5,653 nucleotides of DNA, taken from the IMG/VR virus record IMGVR_UViG_3300023290_000168. One strand, given 5' to 3'. Below, piece after piece: positions 2,285-5,653 of this stretch. The notes under the pieces were generated by a model, which was not told the DNA's origin, searched no databases, and was given only the letters and a program-made list of their open reading frames with translations. The DNA is from a virus. Lineage: Duplodnaviria; Heunggongvirae; Uroviricota; Caudoviricetes. Made by a program: the position numbers and the translations under genes. Positions within the stretch are counted from its first letter, which is position 1. Each line of letters opens with the position of its first letter.

Positions 2285-3220
2285 ATGGAACCCCTTCGTG
2301 AAATAAGAAATCGACTGCTTAACGGCTGGCAACTATCAAAACTGCATACTTTTGAAGTGGCTGCCAGGCATCAGTCCTTCGCCCTTGCGGCAGAGGAATT
2401 GTCGCTGAGCCCCAGTGCGGTAAGTCACCGTATCAATCAGCTGGAAGAAGAATTAGGTATTCAGTTGTTTGTTCGTTCCCATCGCAAAGTGGAATTAACG
2501 CACGAGGGGAAACGTGTTTATTGGGCGCTAAAATCGTCGCTGGATACCCTGAATCAGGAAATTCTGGATATCAAAAATCAGGAGTTATCGGGAACGTTAA
2601 CGTTGTATTCCCGGCCCTCTATCGCCCAATGCTGGTTGGTGCCCGCATTAGGTGACTTTACACGCCGATATCCGTCTATTTCGCTCACCGTGCTCACTGG
2701 TAATGACAATGTCAATTTGCAACGTGCCGGAATCGATTTGGCGATCTACTTTGATGATGCGCCGTCAGCGCAATTGGCTCATCACTTTCTGATGGATGAA
2801 GAAATCCTGCCAGTTTGCAGCCCGGAGTACGCTCATAGACATGATTTAACCAACACGGTAATTAACCTGCGTCACTGTACGTTGCTCCATGACAGACAGG
2901 CATGGAGCAACGACTCCGGTACGGATGAATGGCATAGTTGGGCGCAACATTATGCGGTTAATTTGCCGACATCTTCTGGAATTGGCTTTGATCGCTCTGA
3001 TTTAGCCGTTATCGCCGCGATGAATCATATTGGGGTGGCGATGGGAAGGAAACGTCTGGTACAAAAAAGGCTTGCCAGTGGTGAGCTCGTCGCGCCGTTT
3101 GGCGATATGACGGTGAAATGCCATCAGCATTATTACATCACTACATTACCGGGCAGGCAGTGGCCAAAAATTGAGGCATTTATTACTTGGTTAAGAGAAC
3201 AGGTAAAAACCACTTCATAA
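2285..3220 (+). CDS. dsdC: LysR-type transcriptional activator of D-serine utilisation genes (311 aa)
   Basis: Track ORF 2279..3220 begins at a GTG (MIMEPL...). I prefer the ATG at 2285 (MEPLREIRNRLLNGWQL...), which has AGGTG about 5 nt upstream and gives 311 aa. N-terminal LysR-family HTH (TFEVAARHQSFALAAEELSLSPSAVSHRINQLEEELG) followed by a co-inducer-binding domain. Divergent from dsdXA, as expected for DsdC. Confidence 0.9.
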   Translation: MEPLREIRNRLLNGWQLSKLHTFEVAARHQSFALAAEELSLSPSAVSHRINQLEEELGIQLFVRSHRKVELTHEGKRVYWALKSSLDTLNQEILDIKNQELSGTLTLYSRPSIAQCWLVPALGDFTRRYPSISLTVLTGNDNVNLQRAGIDLAIYFDDAPSAQLAHHFLMDEEILPVCSPEYAHRHDLTNTVINLRHCTLLHDRQAWSNDSGTDEWHSWAQHYAVNLPTSSGIGFDRSDLAVIAAMNHIGVAMGRKRLVQKRLASGELVAPFGDMTVKCHQHYYITTLPGRQWPKIEAFITWLREQVKTTS

Positions 3221-3319
3221 TGAATAAGACCACGAGTTCCTGGTGTGCCTTATTCGGCATTGCTAGTGCGAATTTAATAATTTACGGTTTTTACGTGGTT
3301 TTAGGGATAAACACAAGAA

Positions 3320-3334
3320 TGGTGTCCCCTGCAG
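3320..3334 (-). mobile_element. Prophage attR core: displaced 3'-terminal fragment of tRNA-Arg (argW), bacterial/prophage junction
   Basis: Minus strand of 3320-3334 reads CTGCAGGGGACACCA, which matches the acceptor 3' strand plus discriminator and CCA of E. coli argW as I recall it (...GGTTCGATTCCTGCAGGGGACACCA). Similarity stops at 3335. An excisionase gene lies immediately on the prophage side and dsdC on the chromosomal side, the known context of the KplE1/CPS-53 attR. No complete tRNA is present. Confidence 0.6.
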
Positions 3335-3407
3335 ACATCTACTTGAGGCGGCAGGGGATTGATTGGAATGGTGTTTTTTAGATGTGAGAAATATTTTACC
3401 CGCTATT

Positions 3408-3608
3408 TTACCCATTGGCGCGGCTTAAGAGCTTATTTTTGAATTCACAATGGTCACGATATAACCATCTTGCTCGCCCGTGGATAACTTTGGCTTTTGG
3501 CAGGTCGCCGGACTTAATCCGGTCATAGATGAAGGTTTTACCGAAGCCAGTATCGGCCATGATGAATTTCAAATCAACCAGTGAATCAGGTTGTAGTTCG
3601 TGTTGCAT
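3408..3608 (-). CDS. torI: Prophage excisionase / recombination directionality factor (winged-helix Xis family), also known as Tor response-regulator inhibitor (66 aa)
   Basis: Track ORF of 66 aa, MQHELQPDSLVDLKFIMADTGFGKTFIYDRIKSGDLPKAKVIHGRARWLYRDHCEFKNKLLSRANG, which I recognise as TorI of KplE1. Its size and its position as the first gene inside attR fit an Xis. ATG at 3608-3606, stop TAA at 3410-3408. Confidence 0.85.
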   Translation of the reverse strand: MQHELQPDSLVDLKFIMADTGFGKTFIYDRIKSGDLPKAKVIHGRARWLYRDHCEFKNKLLSRANG

Positions 3609-3627
3609 GAGTGCTATCTCCGAATAG

Positions 3628-3643
3628 GGAATCGAACCTGCAA
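3628..3643 (-). other. tRNA-Arg T-arm-like fragment (16 nt) within the prophage arm, upstream of torI
   Basis: Minus strand of 3628-3643 reads TTGCAGGTTCGATTCC, identical to the variable-loop/T-arm segment of argW as I recall it. The flanking bases do not complete a T-stem, so this is a fragment and not a tRNA gene. Confidence 0.4.
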
Positions 3644-3650
3644 ATCAGGC

Positions 3651-3673
3651 AATAAAAAACCGCCATCAGGCGG
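3651..3673 (-). terminator. Rho-independent terminator (minus strand) after the 55-codon ORF and upstream of torI
   Basis: Minus strand reads GCCGCC-tgat-GGCGGt followed by TTTTTTATT (stem 3660-3673 region, U-tract from 3651-3659). The TGA stop of the 55-codon ORF sits in the loop. Confidence 0.6.
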
Positions 3674-3833
3674 CTTGGTGTTCTTTCAGTTCTTCAATTC
3701 GAATATTAGTTACGTCTGCATGTGCTATCTGCGCCCACAGCATCCAGTGGTCATAGCAGTCGTTGATGTTCTCTGCTTCGATAACTCTGTTGAATGGCTC
3801 TCCATTCCATTCACCTGTGACTCGGAAGTGCAT
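3666..3833 (-). CDS. Hypothetical small protein (55 aa), prophage-encoded
   Basis: Not in the track (below its size cutoff). My own translation from ATG 3833-3831 gives MHFRVTGEWNGEPFNRVIEAENINDCYDHWMLWAQIAHADVTNIRIEELKEHQAA, ending at TGA 3668-3666. GGAG lies 7 nt upstream of the ATG (plus-strand CTCC at 3841-3844) and an intrinsic terminator follows directly. Caveat: two terminator-like hairpins sit immediately upstream and there is no obvious dedicated promoter. Confidence 0.4.
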   Translation of the reverse strand: MHFRVTGEWNGEPFNRVIEAENINDCYDHWMLWAQIAHADVTNIRIEELKEHQAA

Positions 3834-3841
3834 TTATCATC

Positions 3842-3868
3842 TCCATAAAACAAAACCCGCCGTAGCGA
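3842..3868 (-). terminator. Terminator-like hairpin 2 (minus strand): CTCGC-tacg-GCGGG followed by TTTTGTTTTAT
   Basis: Minus-strand stem at 3855-3868 (5 bp, one G-U pair, 4-nt loop) followed by a U-rich tract at 3842-3854, immediately upstream of the RBS of the 55-codon ORF. Confidence 0.45.
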
Positions 3869-3872
3869 GTTC

Positions 3873-3901
3873 AGATAAAAGAAATCCCCGCGAGTGCGAG
3901 G
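3873..3901 (-). terminator. Rho-independent terminator 1 (minus strand) ending the coupled cassette: CCTCGC-actc-GCGGGG followed by ATTTCTTTTATCT
   Basis: Minus-strand stem at 3886-3901 (6 bp, GC-rich, one G-U pair, 4-nt loop), beginning 4 nt after the stop of the ASCH-fold gene, then a U-rich tract at 3873-3885. Confidence 0.5.
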
Positions 3902-3905
3902 ATTA

Positions 3906-4190
3906 TCATTCATTGTCGATATTCACCTTTATAGCGAACACCTTTACCGGTTTATCGCCGAAGTGCGGATGTGTGATTGTCTTGATTTCATATCCGTCAT
4001 ACGGGACGTCAATTCTGCGGCTGGAATCGTCGCGCTTCGGATATCCCTTTGTGATAATCAGGCGGTCATACTCGCGGAACATAATTCGCTTATTCCAGTA
4101 GTCATTACACAGGCGATACTCTTCCGTTTTCTCTCCGCGAATCATGGCATCGAAGTATTCACCTTTAACGGCAAGTTGCAGGTTAGCCAC
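3906..4190 (-). CDS. ASCH-domain (PUA-like fold) protein, 94 aa, prophage-encoded
   Basis: Track ORF of 94 aa, MANLQLAVKGEYFDAMIRGEKTEEYRL..., with a G19-x-K21-x-x-E24-x-R26 match to the ASCH signature GxKxxExR. GTG start at 4190-4188 preceded by AAGGAGG with a 6-nt spacer; stop TGA at 3908-3906. The start overlaps the end of the upstream gene by 8 nt. Confidence 0.75.
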   Translation of the reverse strand: MANLQLAVKGEYFDAMIRGEKTEEYRLCNDYWNKRIMFREYDRLIITKGYPKRDDSSRRIDVPYDGYEIKTITHPHFGDKPVKVFAIKVNIDNE

Positions 4191-4467
4191 GACCTTCCTC
4201 CTTTGGCTTGTGAATTTGTATCGTCATGCCGCTTTGAGTGGTGACTACAACGACAGAACCAGGCTGAAGACTGTTAAGATTGAATGCTTCGTAAAACGAA
4301 GCCAAGGCCAGCGCTTTTTTATTCTTTCGGTTCCACCAACGCCATCCATTGCTACAGGCTACACTGACAATCCACTGTCCACTCCTGTAAGCCATATAAA
4401 ACCAGATGAGCAAAACCTGAATGAATGCTATCCAGTCAATAATCGTATATTTCGCGAAGGAGACCAT
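4183..4467 (-). CDS. Small single-pass membrane protein (94 aa), hypothetical, prophage-encoded
   Basis: Track ORF 4183..4470 begins at a TTG. I prefer the ATG at 4467-4465 (MVSFAKYTIIDWIAFIQVLLIWFYMAYRSGQW...), which has AGGAGG 7 nt upstream. One N-terminal hydrophobic helix (about residues 8-27) followed by a basic stretch (WRWWNRKNKK). The ATG overlaps the TGA of the upstream gene (TGATG). Confidence 0.6.
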   Translation of the reverse strand: MVSFAKYTIIDWIAFIQVLLIWFYMAYRSGQWIVSVACSNGWRWWNRKNKKALALASFYEAFNLNSLQPGSVVVVTTQSGMTIQIHKPKEEGRG

Positions 4468-5132
4468 CAATTAACCTCCTGCGGCGGTTCCGGTAGAGGC
4501 ATCCAGTACAAGGCGTTCCCTAACCACGATAAAGTGCCGTCGCTCAACTCCACGTATTCCCCTTGTACCTGTCCTGCCATATACTCGCCGTGCTTTGAAT
4601 AAATTAAAATCCAATCATCTTGAGCGGGCATTCGCTCACTACAGCTTATCCAACCATCCGGAGTTACCGGATAGTTGCCAGCCTCATACGCGACCCTTAT
4701 CCAGTGCATAAACATTTCAGTACTTACACATCCACAATCAACATCAATTTTGTCATGCTGCTGTTCCAGCCATTGCTCAAAAGTTAACTTGTAAGTTTGG
4801 CTTACAGGTTCGGCTTCCAGTTCTGCAATGCGCTTCTCTGCAGCTTCCAGCTCAACGCGCAGCTTCCCTACCGTTAGCGCAATTTCCTCGTTCTCCTGGT
4901 CGCGGCGTTTGATGTATTGCTGGTTTCTTTCCCGTTCATCCAGCAGCGCCAGCACGGTTTCTGGTCCGGTCAGAAATTTGAAGGCGTTGAGCGCATCAAT
5001 ATCCACACCGTAATCCTTAAGTTCCTGTTCACTTAACAAATCATCATCAACTGGCAACATTAACAGGCGTTCCATTGCCGGAATTGCACGTTCTGCCGCC
5101 TCACGCAGTGCCTGATAGTTAATTTTGGTCAT
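4467..5132 (-). CDS. Phage protein with N-terminal coiled-coil region and C-terminal DUF551-like domain (Ea22-like family), 221 aa
   Basis: Track ORF of 221 aa. N-terminus MTKINYQALREAAERA... and the coiled-coil-like VGKLRVELEAAEKRIAELEAE resemble Ea22-like prophage proteins. C-terminus WISCSERMPAQDDWILIY...LYWMPLPEPP matches the DUF551 pattern as I remember it. ATG at 5132-5130 with GGGGGA RBS; only 1 nt separates it from the stop of the upstream gene. Confidence 0.8.
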   Translation of the reverse strand: MTKINYQALREAAERAIPAMERLLMLPVDDDLLSEQELKDYGVDIDALNAFKFLTGPETVLALLDERERNQQYIKRRDQENEEIALTVGKLRVELEAAEKRIAELEAEPVSQTYKLTFEQWLEQQHDKIDVDCGCVSTEMFMHWIRVAYEAGNYPVTPDGWISCSERMPAQDDWILIYSKHGEYMAGQVQGEYVELSDGTLSWLGNALYWMPLPEPPQEVN

Positions 5133-5433: not shown

Positions 5434-5653
5434 TGGTTGCCTCCTTTGCGAAGCTGGGCAGCAAAGTCAACTAACCACTCAGTCATTTCAACCTTCCCTA
5501 CCAGGTCTGAACCAGGGTGCATACAGCAATCACTCTGCGCCGCTTTGAAATCCTTATACTCATATTCTTGGGCCACCAGATTTTTTGCAGCTTCTATAGC
5601 TGAACCGCCCCGGGAATCCTGGAGACTAAACTTCCTGAGAAAGAGGTAAACAG
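5430..5653 (-). CDS. Hypothetical phage protein, C-terminal 74 codons (5' end beyond right edge)
   Basis: Not in the track because it is edge-truncated. The minus-strand frame is open from the window edge to TGA at 5432-5430. My translation reads ...VYLFLRKFSLQDSRGGSAIEAAKNLVAQEYEYKDFKAAQSDCCMHPGSDLVGKVEMTEWLVDFAAQLRKGGNQ. Its stop overlaps the next gene's GTG, as in the rest of the cassette. Confidence 0.5.
   Translation of the reverse strand, partial: VYLFLRKFSLQDSRGGSAIEAAKNLVAQEYEYKDFKAAQSDCCMHPGSDLVGKVEMTEWLVDFAAQLRKGGNQ

What the first reader, a model, noticed from the sequence alone, without database searches (positions are those of the whole stretch)
3651..3905. A 55-codon ORF insulated by intrinsic terminators on both sides
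Two consecutive terminator-like hairpins with U-tracts (3873-3901 and 3842-3868, sharing the CTCGC...GCGGG motif) end the coupled cassette. They are followed immediately by an ORF with a GGAG RBS at 7-nt spacing and 55 sense codons, whose TGA stop lies in the loop of a third terminator (3651-3673) just upstream of torI. Either the ORF is a real small protein expressed by read-through or antitermination, or the hairpins act as an attenuator or other structured RNA element controlling transcription into xis. Unscheduled xis expression would be costly for a lysogen, so multi-layer termination here is biologically plausible.
Basis: partly seen in the sequence, partly recalled or inferred. Interest (0 to 1): 0.45.

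Follow-up and report, generated by a model that had tools for sequence, protein, structure and literature searches.

The report
Lambda orf55 cassette bracketed by terminators

Summary
On the minus strand there are two tandem hairpin/U-tract elements (stems 3904-3883 and 3872-3853). They are followed by GGAG (3844-3841), a 7-nt spacer, ATG at 3833 and 55 sense codons. The TGA stop (3668-3666) lies in the loop of a third hairpin/U-tract (stem 3676-3657), 38 nt before torI.

The ORF is the homolog of phage lambda orf55 (lambdap35, 98% amino-acid identity; PHROG 676, function unknown). It is under strong purifying selection: 92 distinct DNA variants encode 41 proteins, and dN/dS is about 0.1. It was intact in 167 of 168 loci examined.

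The three hairpins are lambda's predicted terminators t3, t4 and t5 (Bloch et al. 2014, in silico). The hairpins plus ORF form a mosaic cassette. Homology to other phages breaks at the stop codon of whatever gene lies upstream and in the U-tract after t5. The cassette occurs in about 40% of complete E. coli genomes.

The most likely mechanism is ordinary intrinsic termination inside an N-antiterminated early-left operon, which would make orf55 and torI/xis depend on antitermination. No alternative (attenuator) fold, promoter or Rfam family was found. The terminators have not been shown to work experimentally. Nothing new in kind; low interest.

The parts
3883..3904 (-). Hairpin H1 (= lambda predicted terminator t3), 9 bp with one G-U. 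The U-rich tail UCUUUUAUCU runs on to 3873. It starts 2 nt after the stop codon of the upstream ASCH gene.
   Evidence: The sequence is nearly identical to lambda t3 in Table 4 of PMC4195576 (one base differs in the U-tract). In other loci it is replaced by unrelated hairpins that share the same U-rich tail. It is weak by a d'Aubenton-Carafa-type score.
3853..3872 (-). Hairpin H2 (= lambda predicted terminator t4), 8 bp, tail UGUUUUAUGG running to 3843. It resembles H1 and is probably a tandem duplicate.
   Evidence: The commonest variant changes the U-G pair to U-A (GCGGG to GCGAG), which keeps the stem.
3841..3844 (-). Shine-Dalgarno GGAG, 7 nt before the ATG.
   Evidence: Direct reading. 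It is invariant in lambda and HK140.
3666..3833 (-). orf55 homolog: 55 codons plus TGA. RefSeq WP_000545737.1 'hypothetical protein'; PHROG 676; predicted beta-beta-alpha-beta fold.
   Evidence: 98% identical to lambda lambdap35. dN/dS about 0.1 and 3rd>1st>2nd codon-position variability. phrog_676 E=3.7e-40. AlphaFold2 pLDDT 89.6.
3657..3676 (-). Hairpin T3 (= lambda predicted terminator t5), 8 bp, with the loop UGAU containing the stop codon. The tail UUUAUUGCCU runs to 3647. It is the strongest of the three.
   Evidence: It is annotated as a rho-independent terminator in phage HK140. A compensatory G-C to U-A change is seen in L125. The stop codon lies in the loop or 3' arm of a hairpin in 10 of 12 lineages examined, followed by five or more U in nine of them.
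3906..4190 (-). Upstream ASCH-domain gene. It is the last gene of the overlapping (coupled) block, and its stop codon marks the left junction of the cassette.
3408..3608 (-). torI (excisionase / recombination directionality factor), the gene downstream of the cassette.
   Evidence: Homology with K-12 KplE1 starts in the U-tract of T3.

Best explanation
The region is a copy of the phage-lambda orf55 cassette in a CUS-3/P22-like prophage (or prophage remnant) integrated at argW. It contains one genuine small protein gene of unknown function, preceded by two tandem intrinsic terminators and followed by a stronger one whose loop holds the stop codon.

**Shown**
- The gene is real and conserved.
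- The hairpin/U-tract elements are conserved or replaced by functional equivalents.
- The block behaves as a mosaic module. Its left junction is the stop codon of whatever gene lies upstream, and its right junction is the U-tract of T3.

**Inferred**
- The hairpins act as ordinary Rho-independent terminators inside the early-left (PL) operon.
- RNA polymerase modified by the phage N-like antiterminator reads through them. orf55 and torI/xis would therefore be delayed-early, antitermination-dependent genes.
- Unmodified polymerase (leaky, internal or IS-derived transcription in a lysogen or remnant) would be stopped before torI.

**Further inference**
- H1 begins 2 nt after the upstream stop codon, and T3 contains the orf55 stop codon. 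A ribosome finishing translation should occlude both, following the distance effect measured for tR2 in PMC4824070.
- H2 would then be the effective backstop after the upstream gene.
- T3 would act mainly on untranslated or uncoupled transcripts.
- Transcripts that end at T3 still carry a complete orf55 with a 3' hairpin.
For: - **Identity.** tblastn finds the protein in 87 phage records, including lambda at 29121-29285 (98%), between ea8.5 and xis. The DNA from H1 through the T3 U-tract is nearly identical in lambda and HK140, while the flanks are unrelated.
- **Coding.** 92 distinct nucleotide variants encode 41 proteins. Variable sites by codon position are 15/6/24, or 22/10/44 including the Klebsiella types. 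Against Klebsiella homologs pS is 0.69-0.84 and pN 0.165, giving dN/dS about 0.1. The ORF is intact in 167 of 168 loci, whereas the two overlapping alternative ORFs are broken in about 77% of contexts.
- **Terminators.** See the scan and fold statistics. ARNold (Erpin plus RNAmotif) predicted these three elements (the lambda copies) as t3, t4 and t5 (PMC4195576 Table 4). HK140 annotates T3 as a terminator. T3 scores like the trp attenuator and lambda tR2.
- **Selection for the layout.** H1 is replaced by at least three unrelated hairpins that keep the U-tail. The MKFKV variant (Stx2-86 type) has an unrelated terminator, AAAGGAGCUUCGGCUCCUUUUUUU, before a different ribosome-binding site. L095 and L175 also have unrelated upstream terminators. 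The stop codon sits in the loop or 3' arm of a hairpin in 10 of 12 lineages, down to about 45-50% protein identity, and five or more U follow it in nine of them.
- **Module junctions.** Upstream homology ends 64-70 nt before the ATG in 42 loci and 39-49 nt before it in 9. Downstream homology ends 6-12 nt after the stop in 50 loci. There are 28 upstream and 8 downstream flank clusters in 50 combinations.
- **Antitermination context.** The intact sister prophage in ATCC 11775 has a PL-like promoter, a boxA-like GCUCUUUAACA, an N-like gene (phrog_271, E=2.9e-36) and further tandem terminators in the same operon.
- **No alternative signal.** No promoter-like site lies on the minus strand between the upstream genes and torI.
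Against: - No transcript 3'-end, read-through or translation data were available for this locus. The lambda ribosome-profiling paper (Liu et al. 2013) and the KplE1/Rho paper (Menouni et al. 2013) are not in the held library, so termination and its suppression are predictions only.
- H1 has an interrupted U-tract and scores as weak.
- In the window itself the operon is cut at 5600/5601 by an IS3-family element. In the closest genome PL and N are deleted, so antitermination may no longer operate here.
- Two distant homologs (L178, Morganella L089) have no terminators and overlap their neighbours, so the layout is not obligatory for the protein family.
- The 168 loci include some contigs fetched twice by two scans, so the locus counts are not independent.
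Confidence: 0.72

Rival explanations
1. The hairpins form an attenuator or other regulatory RNA switch, with mutually exclusive terminator and antiterminator folds or a ligand- or protein-responsive element, that decides whether transcription proceeds into torI/xis.
For: The tandem hairpins share a motif (CTCGC...GCGGG) and sit just upstream of an excisionase gene. The stop codon in the T3 loop could couple termination to translation (PMC4824070).
Against: All three hairpins have pairing probabilities of 0.7-1.0 in a 321-nt context. None of the 12 suboptimal structures listed, all about 3-4 kcal/mol above the minimum, disrupts H1 or H2. There is no leader peptide or alternative arm. Rfam gave only a sub-threshold RsmY hit driven by the terminator stem (19.7 bits against a 57-bit cut-off). 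In other phages H1 is exchanged for unrelated hairpins, which fits a generic terminator rather than a specific switch.
Confidence: 0.05
2. The cassette is a classical phage 'moron': an autonomously transcribed gene with its own promoter, expressed from the repressed prophage. The upstream hairpins would only insulate it from the operon.
For: It is a discrete mosaic insert with a terminator at its 3' end and many different neighbours. Bloch et al. report that the neighbouring lambda gene ea8.5 is expressed in uninduced lysogens (PMC4195576 discussion).
Against: No sigma-70-like promoter was found on the minus strand anywhere in 3200-4300 or in the corresponding region of L001. Only 9 nt separate the H2 tail from the SD, so there is no room for a promoter downstream of the terminators. 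The other upstream contexts also place a terminator 12-35 nt before the ATG.
Confidence: 0.08
3. The hairpins have little terminator activity. On this view they are relics or facilitators of recombination at module junctions ('boundary sequences' of lambdoid mosaics) or mRNA-stabilising 3' hairpins left after processing.
For: Homology breakpoints fall exactly in the U-tracts and at stop codons. H1 scores as weak and H2 as marginal. H1 and T3 are so close to stop codons that ribosomes should suppress them (PMC4824070).
Against: T3 has a canonical 8-bp GC-rich stem plus U6 and scores like lambda tR2 and the trp attenuator. Unrelated hairpins at the same position always keep a U-tract, and a U-tract is what termination needs, not stability or recombination. 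Compensatory changes keep the stems.
Confidence: 0.13
4. The region encodes a small RNA, for example a 3'-UTR-derived, Hfq-binding sRNA ending at H1/H2 or T3, and the ORF is incidental.
For: Tandem terminator hairpins with U-tails resemble sRNA 3' ends. There is a weak RsmY-like Rfam hit at 3882-4013.
Against: The hit is far below the gathering score. The ORF shows clear coding selection. No promoter was found.
Confidence: 0.02

Closest known systems
Phage lambda orf55 (lambdap35, NP_597778) with predicted terminators t3, t4 and t5 in the exo-xis region (Bloch et al. 2014, PMC4195576; Donaldson 2021, PMC8614690)
   Same: The protein is 98% identical. The RBS and the three hairpins are nearly identical, with base changes only in unpaired positions, and the element has the same position immediately upstream of the excisionase gene.
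   Different: The upstream neighbour is an ASCH-domain gene instead of ea8.5. The downstream gene is torI (KplE1/HK620-type RDF) instead of lambda xis. The host element is a P22-like CUS-3-type prophage at argW, here truncated by an IS3-family element.
Intrinsic terminators of the lambda PL operon (tL1, tL2 cluster, tL3) overridden by N antitermination (textbook; own knowledge)
   Same: Hairpin/U-tract elements lie within a long early-left operon that also carries an N-like gene and a nut-like boxA in the intact sister prophage. The logic is the same: distal genes need antitermination.
   Different: The tL terminators were mapped experimentally, whereas these are predictions only. These lie at the far end of the operon, bracket a single small gene, and move with it as a module.
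Phage 'morons' (Hendrix/Juhala 2000; own knowledge)
   Same: A single accessory gene inserted between unrelated neighbours, with its own terminator, sharp mosaic junctions and many combinations.
   Different: No promoter of its own was detectable, and a terminator lies upstream instead. It is therefore expected to be silent in the lysogen rather than expressed from the prophage.
Rho-dependent silencing of torI in K-12 KplE1 (Menouni et al. 2013 PNAS; cited in PMC12360218; content from own knowledge)
   Same: The same downstream gene (torI) and the same biological issue: transcription reaching the RDF triggers excision, so termination upstream keeps the prophage in place.
   Different: K-12 KplE1 lacks the orf55 cassette and its intrinsic terminators, and the mechanism there is Rho-dependent.
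T7 Gp2 RNA-polymerase inhibitor (structural analogy proposed for Orf55 by Donaldson 2021)

Membership tests
Lambda Orf55 family (PHROG 676) | Full-length sequence homology to lambda lambdap35 | tested here: met
   tblastn gives 98.2% identity over 55 of 55 residues to NC_001416 29121-29285. phrog_676 E=3.7e-40 over 1-55 of 55.
Lambda Orf55 family (PHROG 676) | Protein-coding constraint on the frame | tested here: met
   dN/dS about 0.1. Codon-position variability is 15/6/24. The ORF is intact in 167 of 168 loci.
Lambda Orf55 family (PHROG 676) | Position at the distal end of the early-left (exo-xis) region, just before the excisionase | tested here: met
   In the window it lies 57 nt upstream of torI. 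The position is the same in lambda, HK140 and the Klebsiella prophage L084. This does not hold for all relatives (L175, Stx2-86).
Rho-independent (intrinsic) terminator | GC-rich hairpin immediately followed by a U-tract on the transcribed strand | tested here: met
   Three sites were found on the minus strand. The lambda copies of all three were predicted by Erpin and RNAmotif. The T3 score is comparable with known terminators, H2 is marginal and H1 is weak.
Rho-independent (intrinsic) terminator | Transcript 3' ends in the U-tract / reduced downstream transcription | not testable with these tools
   No Term-seq or RNA-seq data are accessible. The relevant lambda papers are not held.
N-antiterminated lambdoid early-left operon | PL promoter, nut site (boxA/boxB) and an N-like gene upstream in cis | tested here: inconclusive
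   These are present in the intact sister prophage of ATCC 11775: PL-like TTGACC-17-TAAATT, GCTCTTTAACA, and phrog_271 N-like. The window itself is cut by an IS3-family end at 5601, and the closest genome lacks PL and N.
Phage moron | Own promoter upstream of the gene | tested here: not met
   No promoter-like site was found on the minus strand in 3200-4300 or in the homologous part of L001. A terminator abuts the RBS.
Phage moron | Own terminator downstream, and insertion between otherwise unrelated or adjacent genes | tested here: met
   T3 travels with the gene. There are 28 upstream and 8 downstream flank clusters.
Transcription attenuator / riboswitch | Mutually exclusive terminator and antiterminator structures, or a known aptamer | tested here: not met
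   No competing fold appears among the 12 listed suboptimal structures (about 3-4 kcal/mol above the minimum), and hairpin probabilities are about 1. There is no Rfam hit above threshold.
T7 Gp2-like RNAP inhibitor | Specific structural similarity to Gp2 | tested here: inconclusive
T7 Gp2-like RNAP inhibitor | Binding to the RNAP beta' jaw / inhibition of sigma-70 transcription | not testable with these tools
   Only a speculative docking model exists (PMC8614690).

The most novel reading that the evidence does not exclude
The orf55 cassette may be a portable 'double-lock' checkpoint rather than a passive gene with terminators. Transcription would reach the genes behind it (usually xis/torI) only when the polymerase is N-modified, or when a ribosome translating orf55 sits on the stop codon inside the T3 loop and melts that terminator.

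On this reading the recurrent replacement of the upstream terminator by unrelated ones, and the conserved stop codon in a terminator loop down to about 45% protein identity, reflect selection for the gating. Orf55 itself, part of lambda's 'bin' region, would be harmful to the host unless it is confined to the lytic programme.
Probability: 0.15. Interest if true: 0.5.

Novelty: already known. Interest (0 to 1): 0.17.

Why it matters
The result matters mainly as a clean-up. An apparently odd 'insulated' mini-ORF next to torI is the well-conserved lambda orf55 gene with its published, though only predicted, terminators t3-t5, carried by about 40% of complete E. coli genomes.

Two modest additions come from this work.
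- The terminator-ORF-terminator layout is kept even where the terminators are non-homologous, and its junctions lie exactly at stop codons and U-tracts. This is a neat example of how lambdoid mosaics are assembled.
- The geometry suggests a simple test of ribosome-dependent terminator suppression in a natural phage operon. One terminator starts 2 nt after a stop codon, one lies 34 nt after it, and one encloses a stop codon.

If the terminators work as inferred, they also help explain how IS-truncated prophage remnants that have lost PL and N keep their excisionase silent.

Tried and rejected
- **Pfam.** No family for the ORF.
- **Rfam, permissive thresholds.** Only chance-level hits.
- **tRNA scan.** No tRNA found, so only the 15-nt argW fragment remains at attR.
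- **IMG/VR search with the Flyfo-phage homolog.** Nothing found.
- **RNAalifold on T3 from nine lineages.** MAFFT misaligned the 3' arms because loop lengths differ, so no consensus structure was returned. I folded each sequence separately instead.
- **First home-made terminator detector.** It missed sites where A-U pairs swallow the U-tract. These were corrected by eye and with RNAfold.
- **d'Aubenton-Carafa score.** It is used only as a rough ranking.
- **Papers not held.** Liu et al. 2013 (lambda ribosome profiling) and Menouni et al. 2013 (Rho and torI) could not be read.
- **K-12 ypdJ as a truncated orf55.** Considered and rejected by alignment.
- **Gp2-like function.** Considered and judged unsupported because the fold match is generic.
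- **RNase III / sib-like retroregulation.** Considered, but the extended H1 helix is only about 16 bp with bulges.

Full report
**Where the window comes from.** The window is E. coli chromosome from a B2/ST95-type strain. It is identical over 3200-4300 to ATCC 11775, APEC O1, S88 and others. It contains, in order:
- dsdA, dsdX and dsdC;
- the attR core of the argW integration site, TGGTGTCCCCTGCAG at 3320-3334;
- on the minus strand, the distal end of the early-left operon of a P22-like (CUS-3-type) prophage: torI (3408-3608), the 55-codon ORF (3666-3833), an ASCH-domain gene (3906-4190), DUF4752, an Ead/Ea22-DUF551 gene and DUF7739.

The last 53 bases (5601-5653) are the end of an IS3-family element.

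**Check of the observation.**
- **H1** has its stem at 3904-3883 and its U-rich tail to 3873. It begins 2 nt after the ASCH stop codon.
- **H2** has its stem at 3872-3853 and its tail to 3843.
- **GGAG** at 3844-3841 lies 7 nt before the ATG at 3833.
- **The ORF** has 55 sense codons, and its TGA (3668-3666) occupies three of the four loop bases of T3 (stem 3676-3657, tail to 3647).

The consensus scan finds 5 terminator-like sites in 3200-4300, against 1.0 +/- 1.2 in shuffles. The three hairpins fold at -14.4, -11.0 and -13.0 kcal/mol, with z-scores of -4.9, -3.4 and -3.0. They keep pairing probabilities near 1 in a 321-nt context.

**What the ORF is.** tblastn against phage genomes finds it in 87 records. 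It is 100% identical in CUS-3, Kapi1 and phiv205-1, and 98% identical in phage lambda at 29121-29285. That lambda ORF is lambdap35 (orf55), which lies between ea8.5 and xis. RefSeq annotates the window's ORF as hypothetical protein WP_000545737.1. It has no Pfam family and belongs to PHROG 676, of unknown function.

It is clearly coding.
- Among the loci fetched, 92 distinct nucleotide versions encode only 41 proteins.
- Variable sites by codon position are 15/6/24, or 22/10/44 when the Klebsiella types are included.
- Against Klebsiella homologs, synonymous sites are near saturation (pS 0.69-0.84) while pN is 0.165, giving dN/dS of about 0.1.
- The frame is intact in 167 of 168 loci. The exception is HK022, with a 1-nt deletion.
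- The two overlapping alternative ORFs are broken in most contexts.

The family is small and essentially enterobacterial: 54 cluster representatives among 1.84 billion proteins, many of them fragments.

**What the hairpins are.** The DNA from H1 through the T3 U-tract is almost identical in the window, lambda and HK140, while the flanks are unrelated. Bloch et al. 2014 already listed these three elements, in their lambda versions, as predicted terminators t3, t4 and t5, found by both Erpin and RNAmotif (PMC4195576 Table 4). The HK140 record annotates T3 as a rho-independent terminator. None has been mapped experimentally as far as I could find.

It ranks H2 as marginal and H1 as weak, because H1's U-tract is interrupted.

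**Comparative anatomy.** Across 168 loci (some contigs were fetched twice, so counts are not independent):
- Homology to the window ends 64-70 nt upstream of the ATG (the 5' edge of H1, just after the neighbour's stop codon) in 42 loci.
- It ends between H1 and H2 in 9 loci.
- It ends 6-12 nt after the stop codon (the end of the T3 U-tract) in 50 loci.
- The flanks fall into 28 upstream and 8 downstream clusters, in 50 combinations.

The 260-bp block occurs at 80% coverage or more in 2,180 of 5,426 complete E. coli genomes, with up to 8 copies per genome. K-12's KplE1, which carries the same torI, lacks it. There the shared sequence starts inside the U-tract.

The stems are maintained.
- The commonest H2 variant turns a U-G pair into U-A.
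- T3 shows one G-C to U-A double change (L125), and one uncompensated intermediate.
- H1 has a variant with a re-paired 3' arm.

H1 is also replaced in some loci by at least three unrelated hairpins that keep the same AUUUCUUUUAUC tail. The MKFKV-type gene of Stx2-phage 86 has an unrelated terminator (AAAGGAGC-UUCG-GCUCCUUU-UUUU) in front of a different ribosome-binding site. L095 and the distant L175 homolog (about 45% identity, located next to the repressor gene and not near xis) have their own upstream terminators as well.

The stop codon lies in the loop or 3' arm of a hairpin in 10 of 12 lineages examined, and five or more U follow it in nine of them; L086 has only a degenerate stem. These include the Flyfo and '15b' phages, whose arms have different sequences. 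Two distant homologs (L178, Morganella) have no terminators and overlap their neighbours. One E. coli context has no upstream terminator at all. The layout is therefore favoured but not obligatory.

**Mechanism.** No sigma-70-like promoter lies on the minus strand between the coupled upstream genes and torI, and only 9 nt separate the H2 tail from the SD. orf55 can therefore be transcribed only by polymerase that has passed H1 and H2.

In the intact sister prophage (ATCC 11775) the operon starts at a PL-like promoter. It is followed by a boxA-like GCUCUUUAACA and an N-like gene (phrog_271), and it contains another tandem terminator pair further up. This is the standard lambdoid design, in which N-modified polymerase ignores intrinsic terminators (established knowledge).

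My best explanation, at about 0.7 confidence, is that H1/H2 and T3 are ordinary intrinsic terminators. They would make orf55 and torI/xis dependent on antitermination and stop unmodified polymerase before the excisionase gene.

A further inference concerns ribosomes. Li et al. showed that tR2 is almost fully repressed when placed a few bases after a translated gene, and regains activity with distance (PMC4824070). By that logic:
- H1, 2 nt after a stop codon, should be largely masked by the terminating ribosome.
- H2, 34 nt after the stop codon, would be the working backstop.
- T3, with the stop codon in its loop, should act mainly on untranslated or uncoupled transcripts.
- T3 still yields a complete orf55 message when it does terminate.

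This step is inference only.

**Rivals.**
- **Attenuator or riboswitch.** There is no alternative fold and no Rfam family, and unrelated terminators can substitute for H1.
- **Classical promoter-bearing moron.** No promoter was found.
- **Hairpins as recombination junctions or stabilisers only.** This cannot be excluded without transcript mapping, but it does not explain why a U-tract is always kept.
- **Small RNA.** The coding signal excludes it.

**Local context.** In this particular genome the operon is interrupted at 5600/5601 by an IS3-family element. In the closest complete genome (MS20673) the IS is followed by an injection-protein fragment, so PL, N and the immunity region are gone. 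If the source strain is similar, the cassette's terminators are no longer overridden by anything. They would simply help keep torI silent in a remnant.

**Verdict.** The element is already known as lambda orf55 with predicted terminators t3-t5. The additions here are the evidence for coding selection, the exact mosaic junctions, and the recurrence of the terminator-ORF-terminator layout with non-homologous terminators. Interest is low.

Noticed in passing
window 5601-5653: The window ends in the terminal sequence of an IS3-family insertion element (TGAACCGCCCCGGGAATCC...). It is identical to the DNA just upstream of an IS3-family transposase gene in strain MS20673, which has two copies. The IS cuts the prophage's early-left operon. 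In MS20673 the immunity, replication and head regions beyond it are deleted.
   Followed up: partly
window 3320-3334: The attR core, a 15-nt fragment of the argW tRNA 3' end (annotated pawZ in K-12), marks the prophage/chromosome junction between torI and dsdC. ARAGORN finds no complete tRNA in the window.
   Followed up: yes
L090 (phage HK022) 1494-1661: The HK022 copy of orf55 carries a 1-nt deletion in codon 2 (ATGC-CTTCC) and is not annotated. This is either a genuine pseudogene or an error in the old sequence. It was the only broken copy among 168 loci.
   Followed up: partly
L093 (E. coli K-12 MG1655) 2595-2830: K-12's KplE1 prophage carries the same torI but has no orf55 cassette. Its small gene ypdJ is unrelated. 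Homology with the window begins inside the U-tract just before torI, so a U-tract serves as the mosaic joint.
   Followed up: yes
L175 1100-1420 (metagenome contig, homolog P0112): A homolog about 45% identical sits near the LexA-like repressor gene, not near xis. It still has a strong unrelated terminator about 35 nt upstream and its TAA stop in the loop of another terminator. Homologs in L178 and in Morganella phage IME1369_01 have neither.
   Followed up: partly
window 3842-3906: H1 and H2 resemble each other (CTCGC...GCGGG followed by a TTTTAT tail), which suggests a tandem duplication of one terminator.
   Followed up: partly
window 4183-4470 vs L001 6984-7269: The DUF4752 gene is intact in the window but annotated as frameshifted in ATCC 11775. 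The Ead/Ea22-DUF551 gene (4467-5132) is intact in the window but split or partial in ATCC 11775 and MS20673. The sister prophages are therefore decaying independently.
   Followed up: no
proteins P0080, P0066, P0075, P0090-P0096: Many database 'proteins' are chimeras in which a foreign or out-of-frame N-terminus is joined to the C-terminal half of Orf55. They probably come from frameshifts, recombination inside the gene, or miscalled starts. P0080 is the window's spurious 62-codon overlapping frame fused to the Orf55 C-terminus.
   Followed up: no
L001 10520-10577 and 11963-11983: The intact sister prophage has another tandem pair of terminator-like hairpins between the gene after N and the cIII-like gene. 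It also has a strong terminator directly after the repressor gene, just upstream of the PL-like promoter. Tandem terminators seem to be a recurring feature of this operon.
   Followed up: no
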